A DNA stretch of 64,000 bases from Candidatus Freyarchaeum deiterrae (GTDB lineage Archaea; Asgardarchaeota; Jordiarchaeia; Jordiarchaeales; Jordiarchaeaceae). The notes under the pieces were generated by a model, which was not told the DNA's origin, did not search any database, and was given only the letters and a program-made list of their open reading frames with translations. Position 1 is the stretch's first letter; every line of letters starts with the position of its first letter. This document shows, piece after piece, positions 21,988 through 23,961 of this stretch. The position numbers and the translations under genes are program-made. The DNA lies in contig CP147778.1 of NCBI GenBank assembly GCA_037305845.1, positions 3,392,001 through 3,456,000 on the forward strand, written 5' to 3'.

Positions 21988-23961
21988 CTAAGCGAGGTCT
22001 TCTTCTTTTAGTCTTTGCCTGCAGTTTGGGCAGTATCCCTTCACTTTTATCCACTCGAGTAGGTGGTCTCTGTGGCTCAAGGCTCCGCAGTAGGGACATT
22101 TAGTATACTGTTCCCCTGAAACGATGTCCATCTGGCACACCGGGCACTTGAGTCTGACTCCCCCGCAGTTGGGGCAGTGCTTCGCGTCCCCCGAAATCTC
22201 GGAGCCGCAGAACAGGCAACACCTCTTCCCGAGAGCGGGAGCGCATGAATCCAACCGACCCAGCTTCTTATCAATGGAAGCCAGCTTGGCGCTGTACTTG
22301 GTGTAAATCTCCGTGTACTCCCCGTGGGTAAGCTTTCCAGCATTAAAACGGGCGTTCGCCTCATCCATGAGGTCTCTGAGAGCCGCCCTCCGCGCCTCAA
22401 GTTCCCCCACCCGAACCTTGGTCTTGGGGAGCTTAACGCGCTTGGAAAAAATTAACGGCTGCGTTTCATAGTGAGGCATCGCCCCCCTAACCTCGGGCAC
22501 CCCCTCCTGCTCAGGGGCCTCCTCTCCAACTCTCCCAGAAGCAGCCGCCCGCTCATACGTGGTTGGACGCCGGGGAGCAGTTCCCCCATATCTGGTTCGG
22601 GCTTCCACCTCAGGAACCCGTTCTTCCCTACTGAGGTACTTCCTCCACTCATAAATGGCGTAGGCTGAGCCTGCCAATACGATCGTAAGCAATAAAACGG
22701 TTCCCCGACTAACTAAAGAATTTTGTGAATTCTGCAGAGAGTTGTAAAAGTTATACAACAGAAAAATAAACAAAGCTAGACCGTTTATAATGACTGTGTT
22801 ATTCTCAAGAGTGTTATTGTATGAATTAGAATCTATGGCGAAGCCGCTGACACAGAACCAGAAGTCTAAGGTCAAAGTGTTATCAGTAATCGTATTATAG
22901 GAGCTATAGTATAATCTGATGCCTATGCTGTTGTTGTTTGCGGTGTTACCAGAAAGAGTGTTGTACGAACTATTGTACAGTTGGAAGCCTAGCGAGTATA
23001 TGGCCGAAGTATACTCGCCGTTGTTGTTTGCGGTGTTACCCGAAAGGGTGCTGTATGAACTATCCCGCAGGTAGAAGTCAACGATACTGTGATTTGCAGT
23101 ATTGCCCGAAAGATTATTATTATTCGAGCTGGATCCTAGAAAGAAGCCTCCATTGACGTTGTTTGTGGCATTGTTTCCAGTAAGAGTATTATTGCTCGAA
23201 TTATATAGGTAGAAGCCAGCAATGGGGTTATTTGTTGCGGTGTTACCAGAAAGAGTGTTTAATGTGCTTTGGTCCATTAGGAAGCCGTTATTGTTGCTGT
23301 TTAGAGTGTTATTTGTAAAATTATTGTTAAAGCTATTAAACAGGCATAAGCCTTCGCGCCAGTTGTTGTTTGCGATGTTGTTTGAAAGATTGTTGTACGA
23401 GCAGCTGTCTAGGTAGAAACCGTAGTTGCCGTTGTTGTTTACAGTGTTTCCCGAAAGAGTGTTGTACGTGCCATTGTAAATGTAAAAGCCGTTGAACCTA
23501 TTCCAGACGGGGAAAGGTGTGCCGTTGTTGTTTGCGGTATTATTTGTAAGATTGTTGTTCGAGCAATTGTACAGGAAGAAGCCGCAGTCCCACCCTGTGA
23601 CTGTGACGTTAAAGATGGTTACATTTCTTCTGCCATTCAAAGAAAAGCCGTACCCACAATATAAAGTTCCAGGGCCTTGCACAGTGTATCCATTTCCGTC
23701 TATAACTATGTTGTCCGCTACTACATTTATTGTTTCAGAATAGTTTTGACTAAATGTAGTGTTTCCGTTGATGTCTAACTTTGGTCGAATGACCGTATTG
23801 GGATTCTGGGAGAAGCCCTGGATGTATGCGTTGATGAACGGGGCTGAGTTTTGGTTTTGGTTCTGGATTGAGGTGACCGCTGCGGTTGTTGTTGCTGTGA
23901 GGAGAATGGCTGCTATGATTAGTATTTTTAGGGTTTTCTTCCTTATCTTTACGCCTTTCAT
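21988..23961 (-). CDS. Receptor-like membrane protein: signal, NosD/CASH beta-helix ectodomain, TM, helical hairpin, zinc ribbon, RING-like finger
   Basis: NIVIDGNG cap; repeated GFYLxxSSxNTLSGNTANNN; TM GTVLLLTIVLAGSAYAIY; CPVC-x12-CPYC-x4-HRDHLLEWIKVKGYCPNCR. Confidence 0.85.
   Translation of the reverse strand: MKGVKIRKKTLKILIIAAILLTATTTAAVTSIQNQNQNSAPFINAYIQGFSQNPNTVIRPKLDINGNTTFSQNYSETINVVADNIVIDGNGYTVQGPGTLYCGYGFSLNGRRNVTIFNVTVTGWDCGFFLYNCSNNNLTNNTANNNGTPFPVWNRFNGFYIYNGTYNTLSGNTVNNNGNYGFYLDSCSYNNLSNNIANNNWREGLCLFNSFNNNFTNNTLNSNNNGFLMDQSTLNTLSGNTATNNPIAGFYLYNSSNNTLTGNNATNNVNGGFFLGSSSNNNNLSGNTANHSIVDFYLRDSSYSTLSGNTANNNGEYTSAIYSLGFQLYNSSYNTLSGNTANNNSIGIRLYYSSYNTITDNTLTLDFWFCVSGFAIDSNSYNNTLENNTVIINGLALFIFLLYNFYNSLQNSQNSLVSRGTVLLLTIVLAGSAYAIYEWRKYLSREERVPEVEARTRYGGTAPRRPTTYERAAASGRVGEEAPEQEGVPEVRGAMPHYETQPLIFSKRVKLPKTKVRVGELEARRAALRDLMDEANARFNAGKLTHGEYTEIYTKYSAKLASIDKKLGRLDSCAPALGKRCCLFCGSEISGDAKHCPNCGGVRLKCPVCQMDIVSGEQYTKCPYCGALSHRDHLLEWIKVKGYCPNCRQRLKEEDLA

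What the first reader, a model, noticed from the sequence alone, without database searches (positions are those of the whole stretch)
21988..23961. Beta-helix ectodomain-TM-RING receptor with a RING-less sibling at 44794-46962
Seen: both proteins share the signal (AAILLTATTTA, QNQNQN), the NIVIDGNGYTVQGPG cap, the coil consensus and the upstream element. Only one has a long cytoplasmic tail with the RING-like finger; the other ends about 30 aa after its TM. Coil frame residues are constant while a few positions per coil vary. Inference: a signalling receptor plus decoy or co-receptor pair with a repeat-based variable binding surface, possibly for glycans, viruses or partner cells.
Basis: partly seen in the sequence, partly recalled or inferred. 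Interest (0 to 1): 0.78.

Follow-up and report, generated by a model that had tools for sequence, protein, structure and literature searches.

The report
Asgard surface protein, ESCRT hairpin, RING

Summary
The 657-aa ORF is real and not chimeric: curated complete Freyarchaeia genome, and an independent contig spans the ectodomain-tail junction. Layout: signal, beta-helix, one TM helix, linker, helical hairpin, zinc ribbon, C4HHC2 RING. The RING is 52-53% identical to the RING proteins of Asgard ubiquitin-E1-E2 operons, including the Helarchaeote E3 used in a published in-vitro cascade, and keeps the three E2-activating residues.

It is a Vps23-type ESCRT-I steadiness box (SB): HHalign 99%, reciprocal best hits, and ESCRT-I Vps23 as top three fold matches. 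TM-SB-RING proteins with other ectodomains occur in Freya-, Baldr- and Sif/Borrarchaeia.

The 'decoy pair' is not supported: the RING-less gene is one of about 17 paralogs and not the closest. Variable residues do lie on one face, but no ligand is shown.

Best reading (about 0.5): a surface-anchored E3 ligase that docks on, or is turned over through, ESCRT-I. Neither activity nor binding was shown. I found no paper describing this layout. This scan earlier noted RING-tailed paralogs here and an SB-RING protein in a Baldrarchaeia genome.

The parts
21988..23961 (-). Whole gene, 657 aa: signal - beta-helix - TM - linker - steadiness box - zinc ribbon - RING
23872..23961 (-). Basic N-region plus hydrophobic signal or anchor (aa 1-30), shared by about 17 paralogs; cleavage not tested
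22786..23781 (-). Right-handed parallel beta-helix (aa 61-392), about 12 coils, 21 N-glycosylation sequons; variable aromatic positions on the long strand and the loop before it
   Evidence: Pfam NosD/Beta_helix; model pLDDT 93.6, pTM 0.90
22744..22782 (-). Short apolar juxtamembrane element (aa 394-406), equivalent to the element before the TM in all paralogs; read as too short to span the membrane
22648..22704 (-). Transmembrane helix (aa 420-438), followed by 4 K/R in 15 residues; only moderately hydrophobic (KD 1.6; 2.3 in homolog P0004)
22411..22647 (-). Pro/Arg/Glu-rich cytoplasmic linker (aa 439-517), less constrained (dN/dS 0.42-0.52)
22249..22410 (-). Vps23-type ESCRT-I steadiness-box helical hairpin (aa 518-571)
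22165..22218 (-). Zinc ribbon C582/C585/C596/C599
22018..22146 (-). RING finger C606, C609, C622, C625, H630, H633, C644, C647, with V608, W637, P645, R648
23963..24199 (-). Shared ~230-bp upstream (promoter/leader) element; 5 copies in the genome
44794..46962 (+). RING-less paralog (722 aa from TTG): signal - longer beta-helix - TM - 36-aa tail; one of about 17 family members
44560..44790 (+). Copy of the shared upstream element
21076..21693 (-). Neighbouring 205-aa 2-TM protein with the same zinc ribbon-RING module (75% nt identity), but with the E2-facing helix replaced (Trp lost); has the same upstream element at 21695-21927
26895..27659 (+). 3-TM protein with an intact zinc ribbon-RING module of the same family

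Best explanation
A type I membrane glycoprotein acting as a surface-anchored RING E3 ligase wired to ESCRT-I. Shown by sequence and structure: an extracellular beta-helix with one variable aromatic face; one TM helix; a Vps23-derived steadiness box; a zinc ribbon; and a RING of the Asgard ubiquitin-operon family with its E2-activating residues intact. Inferred: the RING takes ubiquitin from the genome's E2 and tags itself or neighbouring membrane proteins. The hairpin takes one of the two Vps23-type slots of the Asgard ESCRT-I headpiece (Vps23 x2 : Vps28 in Odinarchaeota), and/or is the site ubiquitinated in cis. Either way the protein and whatever its ectodomain holds (probably a glycan or surface polymer) would be gathered into ESCRT-II/III budding, probably as outward vesicle shedding or surface turnover. 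Step odds: architecture real 0.97; RING cytoplasmic 0.9; active E3 0.65; hairpin engages ESCRT-I 0.45; activity controlled by an outside ligand 0.3.
For: RING: 53% identical over 47 aa to the solo RING in this genome's RING-ubiquitin-E2-E1 operon. 52% to the RING of Helarchaeote Hel_GB_B contig 4, whose ubiquitin ends GG-SPKN and whose UEV-Vps23 is 258 aa, matching the operon reconstituted in bioRxiv 10.1101/2023.07.25.550441. V608/W637/R648 match in kind and spacing the I30/W58/R69 shown by mutagenesis to be needed in Caldiarchaeum srfp (PMC5654768). RING part superposes on E3 RINGs at 1.4 A over 48-49 columns (6w9d, 5d0i). Hairpin: an HMM built only from 31 UEV-Vps23 tails ranks this protein (E 7e-9) and paralog G000:345941 (8e-11) as top non-self hits among 12,276 ORFs, above the genome's own Vps28 (5e-3). 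HHalign gives 99.1% against Vps23 SB and 57% against Vps28. The reverse search pulls UEV-Vps23 loci across Asgard genomes. The model has two helices at pLDDT 93-98, and the top three of 48,161 chains are yeast Vps23 SB (Z 9.2-9.5, rmsd 1.4-2.6 A over 60-65 residues), then CdvA. SB dN/dS is 0.16-0.33. The genome has UEV-Vps23, Vps28, EAP30, two Snf7, two ubiquitins, two E2s, E1s and a JAB. Signal-ectodomain-TM-SB-(ribbon)-RING recurs in Freyarchaeia (P0001, P0009), Baldrarchaeota (L082, P0039, also beta-helix) and Borr/Sifarchaeum (L077, L079, L080).
Against: No activity was measured. The best whole-tail matches in the PDB are the zinc-finger-plus-RING ends of IFT-A and GATOR2 subunits; in IFT-A these RINGs mediate assembly (bioRxiv 10.1101/2022.08.09.503213). 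Z of about 9 for a two-helix hairpin lies within the range a common arrangement can reach, and unrelated hairpins score 8.4-8.8. The query hairpin is only 28% identical to Vps23 SBs, on a long branch, with one invariant Glu changed to Arg, and alone does not hit Pfam Vps23_core. The gene is not next to ubiquitin or ESCRT genes. The TM helix is weak and no topology predictor was available. Most RING-tailed surface proteins lack the hairpin, so it is dispensable for the family.
Confidence: 0.5

Rival explanations
1. Scaffolded adhesin: a glycosylated surface or adhesion protein whose zinc ribbon-RING and hairpin are non-catalytic assembly modules that oligomerise it or tie it to a cytoplasmic coat, as the RINGs of IFT-A, GATOR2 and HOPS do.
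For: The tandem ribbon-RING best matches WDR19/IFT144, WDR24, MIOS and WDR59 in sequence (E about 1e-7 to 1e-4) and fold. Odin Vps23 homodimerises (PMC9192718). A similar hairpin occurs in the cytoplasmic domain of Asgard ribophorin I (8whn, Z 8.8, 21% identity). The ectodomain family is large, Asn-rich and mostly tail-less.
Against: The RING is far closer to operon E3s (52-53%) than to those proteins (16-24%). W637 is nearly invariant and all eight zinc ligands are conserved in 60 homologs.
Confidence: 0.25
2. Self-limiting surface protein: the RING is active but the hairpin is only a built-in degron. It is ubiquitinated in cis to set the protein's own lifetime, without joining ESCRT-I.
For: The Helarchaeote cascade with this RING family mono-ubiquitinates the steadiness box of UEV-Vps23 at K201. 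The query has lysines in and just before its hairpin (K513, K515, K543, K555, K559, K565, K566).
Against: The hairpin is under purifying selection like the RING, more than a lysine acceptor would need. The Baldrarchaeal copies stay 44-53% identical to Vps23 SB.
Confidence: 0.14
3. One reading: a ligand-activated signalling receptor with the 44794-46962 protein as its dedicated decoy or co-receptor.
For: Shared signal, cap and the rare upstream element; variable residues on one face.
Against: About 17 paralogs share the N-terminus; the sibling is not the closest relative, lies 21 kb away, and has a longer helix with different variable residues.
Confidence: 0.06
4. Two true TM helices place the tail outside, or the fusion is an artefact or functionless shuffle.
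For: Two hydrophobic stretches of similar marginal score (KD 1.5 and 1.6). GC rises from 0.42 in the helix to 0.56-0.60 in the tail. One contig carries two single-base deletions in the linker.
Against: The start of the first stretch is a beta-helix strand in the model; the rest matches a short non-spanning element in all paralogs; positive charges follow the second stretch. The junction is spanned at 99.9% identity. The intact linker frame is the one homologous to paralogs. The layout recurs in other lineages.
Confidence: 0.05

Closest known systems
Small RING finger E3s of archaeal ubiquitin operons (Caldiarchaeum srfp, PMC5654768; Helarchaeote E3, bioRxiv 10.1101/2023.07.25.550441; Pfam Prok-RING_1-like)
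   Same: Same C-C-C-C-H-H-C-C finger as the Helarchaeote protein, 52% identity; the three residues shown to matter in srfp have counterparts
   Different: Those are ~80-aa soluble proteins with an N-loop, encoded in operons. This RING is the C-terminus of a single-pass surface protein, behind a zinc ribbon and a steadiness box, at a distant locus.
UEV-Vps23 / Vps23-TSG101 steadiness box, and the Asgard SB-multidomain 'ESCRT-0 analogs' (PMC10936438, PMC9192718)
   Same: Homologous helical hairpin; SB fused to other domains is known in Asgard
   Different: No UEV or stalk. The text and the searchable supplements of PMC10936438 (one file cut) list adaptin, longin, TPR, Ig, PCI, PH and zinc-ribbon partners, but no TM ectodomain plus RING; the figure itself was not viewable.
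Eukaryotic single-pass transmembrane RING E3s (RNF43/ZNRF3, GRAIL/RNF13, plant RMR; from my own knowledge)
   Same: Signal - ectodomain - one TM - cytoplasmic RING layout
   Different: Beta-helix instead of PA domain; C4HHC2 instead of RING-H2; extra ribbon and ESCRT-I hairpin. Analogy in layout; homology not shown.
Zinc finger + RING C-termini of IFT-A (IFT144/121/122) and GATOR2/SEA subunits
   Same: Tandem ribbon-RING with similar spacing; best PDB hits in sequence and fold
   Different: Those end soluble beta-propeller/solenoid coat proteins, and the IFT RINGs are degenerate assembly modules.
NosD / CASH parallel beta-helix surface proteins
   Same: Coil consensus and fold (matches to polysaccharide lyases, epimerases, tailspikes, PfbA, NosD)
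   Different: Far below the NosD family cut-off (48 vs 300 bits); no catalytic site identified; carries a cytoplasmic effector tail.

Membership tests
Archaeal operon-type RING E3 (srfp / Prok-RING_1-like) | Eight zinc ligands in RING order and RING fold | tested here: met
   C606, C609, C622, C625, H630, H633, C644, C647 invariant or nearly so in 60 homologs; 1.4 A over 48-49 columns to E3 RINGs
Archaeal operon-type RING E3 (srfp / Prok-RING_1-like) | E2-contact hydrophobe, helix Trp and linchpin Arg | tested here: met
   V608, W637, R648 vs srfp I30, W58, R69; assigned by motif and spacing, srfp itself not aligned
Archaeal operon-type RING E3 (srfp / Prok-RING_1-like) | Pfam gathering score | tested here: not met
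   zf-RING_2 26.9 vs 27.3; Prok-RING_1 17.1 vs 29.1. The operon RING also misses it (26.6), while paralog 26895-27659 reaches it
Archaeal operon-type RING E3 (srfp / Prok-RING_1-like) | Small soluble protein encoded beside ubiquitin, E1, E2 | tested here: not met
   657-aa membrane protein at a distant locus; the cascade is elsewhere in the genome
Archaeal operon-type RING E3 (srfp / Prok-RING_1-like) | Ubiquitin transfer activity | not testable with these tools
   needs an in-vitro assay
Vps23-type steadiness box | Sequence homology to the UEV-Vps23 C-terminal hairpin | tested here: met
   HMM E 7e-9, top non-self hits; HHalign 99.1%; reciprocal search; 8 of 14 family members hit Pfam Vps23_core, best E 2e-5; groups with Vps23 apart from Vps28
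Vps23-type steadiness box | Two-helix hairpin with the ESCRT-I headpiece geometry | tested here: met
   (top three hits Vps23; Z about 9, not decisive alone)
Vps23-type steadiness box | Binds Vps28 / assembles into the ESCRT-I headpiece | not testable with these tools
   needs a pull-down or SEC-MALS
Vps23/TSG101 (whole protein) | UEV domain and coiled-coil stalk | tested here: not met
   no UEV in the query; the genome's UEV-Vps23 is a separate gene
NosD (nitrous-oxide reductase maturation) | TIGR04247 cut-off and nos gene context | tested here: not met
   48 vs 300 bits; neighbours are a methyltransferase and a metallophosphoesterase
Single-pass transmembrane RING E3 (layout) | Signal, ectodomain, one TM, cytoplasmic RING | tested here: met
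   hydropathy, charge bias and paralog comparison; no dedicated topology predictor run
GAIN/GPS-stalk RING receptors of this genome | H-L-[ST]-x-F motif before the TM | tested here: not met
   present in four RING-tailed paralogs, absent from the query and the sibling

The most novel reading that the evidence does not exclude
Several Asgard lineages have receptor-E3 ligases that are themselves ESCRT-I subunits. An interchangeable ectodomain captures an outside ligand, the RING ubiquitinates, and the built-in steadiness box fills the vacant Vps37-like slot of the headpiece, nucleating budding at the bound cargo. This would be a prokaryotic forerunner of receptor sorting, done by one polypeptide.
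Probability: 0.25. Interest if true: 0.93.

Novelty: new variant of a known kind. Interest (0 to 1): 0.76.

Why it matters
Asgard ubiquitin and ESCRT parts have been reconstituted, but in the papers I read no membrane cargo, or ligase that marks such cargo, has been identified. This protein supplies a concrete candidate that physically joins an ectodomain, a RING of a biochemically used E3 family and an ESCRT-I hairpin. Its 150-residue soluble tail can be tested at once with the E1, E2, ubiquitin, Vps23 and Vps28 of the same complete genome. It also shows that the 'ectodomain-TM-RING' layout of eukaryotic receptor ligases exists in prokaryotes as a shuffled, fast-turning family. The ribbon-RING tandem resembles the ends of IFT-A and GATOR2 subunits, hinting at an archaeal source for that module.

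Tried and rejected
Complex prediction of the hairpin with the Vps28 N-terminal region gave no answer (score 0.01, mark 0.32). It is not evidence either way, and the two-chain design omitted the second Vps23 copy of the 2:1 Asgard headpiece.

A PDB sequence search with the hairpin profile found nothing significant. Pfam does not recognise the query hairpin alone; SHOCT scored weaker than Vps23_core across members (3 vs 8 of 14). The exact protein is not on record in other contigs. Atlas feature search gave no usable hit.

Paper searches found no description of Asgard TM-RING or TM-SB-RING proteins, but the library is incomplete. One look-up by a recalled PubMed id for the prokaryotic RING survey was not held, so TM fusions of prokaryotic RINGs may already be listed there.

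Rejected: dedicated decoy pairing; assembly chimera; true NosD; a GPS cleavage site in this member; PSAP-type motifs (none in the tail). The hairpin tree has 65 columns and cannot settle one versus two captures. No signal-peptide or TM predictor, model coordinates, or expression data were available.

Full report
Source and observation. The window lies in a single-contig genome of 3,576,204 bp, the size of the manually curated, long-read-validated Freyarchaeia genome of PMC11291895. The ORF at 21988..23961(-) encodes 657 aa and the one ending at 46962(+) most likely starts at TTG 44794. An independent Logan contig covers the end of the beta-helix, TM, tail and next gene at 99.9% identity, differing only by two single-base deletions in homopolymer runs of the linker. 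The frame in the window is the one homologous to paralogous linkers. The fusion is therefore real.

Not a pair. Fifteen genes share the signal and cap at E below 1e-60 and three more do so weakly. Most end a few residues after the TM. Over the N-terminus the query is 52-62% identical to all of them, and the RING-less gene is closest to another paralog (70%). The upstream element is rare (five copies) but also precedes the adjacent small TM-RING gene and a decayed TM-RING gene elsewhere. Conversely, the zinc ribbon-RING module occurs in about a dozen proteins of this genome, among them five single-pass proteins with different ectodomains (beta-helix, DUF2341, Ig repeats), multi-TM proteins and soluble ones. 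This is a shuffled family, and the decoy inference has no specific support.

Ectodomain and topology. The model of aa 61-399 is a confident right-handed beta-helix (pLDDT 93.6, pTM 0.90), with fold matches to polysaccharide lyases, epimerases, tailspikes, PfbA and NosD at low identity. It fails the NosD family cut-off. On the six-residue strand, positions 3 and 5 are constant hydrophobes and positions 4 and 6 vary. The longest insertions, rich in aromatic residues, all fall in the loop before that strand, and no sequon Asn sits on the strand itself. By alternation these positions face outward on one side; this is inferred, as I had no coordinates. In beta-helix enzymes and tailspikes a strand flanked by such loops forms the glycan groove (own knowledge), so a binding face is plausible but no ligand is shown. 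Of two hydrophobic stretches, the first begins as a beta-helix strand and the remaining 13 residues correspond to a short apolar element that precedes the TM in every paralog. The second is followed by four basic residues and is clearly hydrophobic in homolog P0004. One TM and a cytoplasmic tail is the likely topology.

The RING. The finger has ligands C-C-C-C-H-H-C-C. It is 53% identical to the solo RING in this genome's RING-ubiquitin-E2-E1 operon and 52% to the RING on Hel_GB_B contig 4. That contig's ubiquitin ends GG-SPKN and its UEV-Vps23 has 258 residues, which identifies it as the operon whose cascade ubiquitinated the steadiness box in vitro; the section I read does not report a minus-E3 control. 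V608, W637 and R648 correspond to I30, W58 and R69, required in Caldiarchaeum srfp. Against this, the ribbon-plus-RING tandem as a whole best matches IFT-A and GATOR2 subunits, and IFT-A RINGs serve assembly.

The missed element. Residues 518-571 first surfaced as a hit to the C-terminus of the genome's UEV-Vps23, which itself passes the Pfam Vps23_core cut-off beside Vps28 and EAP30 genes. An HMM made only from 31 UEV-Vps23 tails ranks the query and its 1690-aa paralog first among all other ORFs, ahead of Vps28. Profile comparison gives 99.1% to Vps23 and 57% to Vps28, and the reverse search retrieves UEV-Vps23 loci across Asgard genomes (67 of 151 genomes with a match). The modelled hairpin's best three matches among 48,161 chains are Vps23 in ESCRT-I structures, though Z of about 9 is not decisive for two helices. 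The hairpin is under purifying selection, with dN/dS 0.16-0.33 against 0.42-0.52 in the linker.

Distribution. Signal-ectodomain-TM-SB-(ribbon)-RING proteins occur in other Freyarchaeia (P0001 with DUF2341; P0009), in Baldrarchaeota with a beta-helix ectodomain and an SB 44-53% identical to Vps23 (L082, P0039), and in Borrarchaeum and Sifarchaeum (about 387 aa). P0004 has beta-helix-TM-ribbon-RING without the hairpin. Among the best representative hits, 33 of 131 with a complete RING have signal, ectodomain and TM by a hydropathy rule. The SB-bearing form was not found in the five same-genus genomes searched (87-99% complete, fragmented), so it is patchy.

Mechanism. The most likely reading is a surface-anchored E3 ligase coupled to ESCRT-I. 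Asgard archaea lack Vps37, and the Odinarchaeote headpiece is two Vps23 plus one Vps28, so a Vps23-type hairpin on a membrane protein could take one slot and recruit ESCRT-II/III where the ectodomain is engaged. The same hairpin is also the ubiquitination site in UEV-Vps23, so it may instead or also be a degron for the RING in cis. Every functional step is inferred: I put active E3 at 0.65, ESCRT-I engagement at 0.45, ligand control at 0.3, and the combined model at 0.5.

Novelty. Each part is known: operon RING E3s, SB-containing multidomain proteins proposed as ESCRT-0 analogs, and RING domains listed among this genome's eukaryotic signature proteins. I found no paper describing their union on a single-pass surface protein, with the caveat that the library is partial. 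Earlier notes of this scan reported RING-tailed paralogs in this genome and an SB-RING protein in a Baldrarchaeia genome; I had found the hairpin and the Baldrarchaeal locus before reading them, and they are not independent support. Verdict: new variant of a known kind, interest 0.76.

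Noticed in passing
window 21076-21693 (-): The adjacent TM-ribbon-RING protein keeps all zinc ligands but has its E2-facing helix replaced (Trp lost, Lys-rich). It is a better candidate for an inactive or decoy sibling than the RING-less gene.
   Followed up: partly
L138:450-481 (about window 22480-22515): An independent contig of this locus has two single-base deletions in C and G runs of the linker that would cut off the SB-RING tail. Sequencing error or a slipped-strand allele; not resolved.
   Followed up: partly
L137 (G000:124493-125320) and L014 (G000:312761-313021): Decayed TM-ribbon-RING genes with frameshifts and stops, the first behind a copy of the same upstream element: birth and death in this family.
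   Followed up: partly
window 23963-24199, 21695-21927, 44560-44790; G000:867316, 124493: A ~230-bp upstream element with only five copies precedes genes that mix beta-helix, multi-TM and RING modules, suggesting promoter-plus-module shuffling.
   Followed up: partly
L010, L011, L012, L013: Four RING-tailed paralogs carry an H-L-[ST]-x-F (GPS-like) motif just before the TM; the query lacks it.
   Followed up: partly
C-termini of about 15 surface proteins in G000: A common membrane-anchor signature (short apolar helix, Gly/Pro linker, TM, basic tail) with no NCBIfam sorting-signal match in the two members tested; possibly an unnamed sorting signal.
   Followed up: no
L131 (G000:867460-869259): A paralog joins the same beta-helix ectodomain to a six-TM C-terminal domain.
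   Followed up: no
tail aa 582-648: The ribbon-RING tandem matches the C-terminal zinc modules of IFT144/121/122 and GATOR2 WDR24/MIOS/WDR59 in sequence and fold: a possible archaeal source of that module.
   Followed up: partly
L076 (Sifarchaeum subterraneum, P0003): Soluble protein with repeated winged-helix/PCI domains followed by the same SB-ribbon-RING tail.
   Followed up: no
G000:2267647-2269245, 2740814-2741584, 1992076-1993395: Further proteins ending in weaker SB-like hairpins.
   Followed up: no
PDB 8whn: The cytoplasmic domain of Asgard ribophorin I matches the hairpin (Z 8.8, 21% identity) and may hold an SB-like element.
   Followed up: no
G000:~165800-171000: A 4015-aa open frame with many beta-helix repeats.
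   Followed up: no
window 47103-47918 (-): HEAT/PBS-repeat protein convergent with the RING-less paralog.
   Followed up: no
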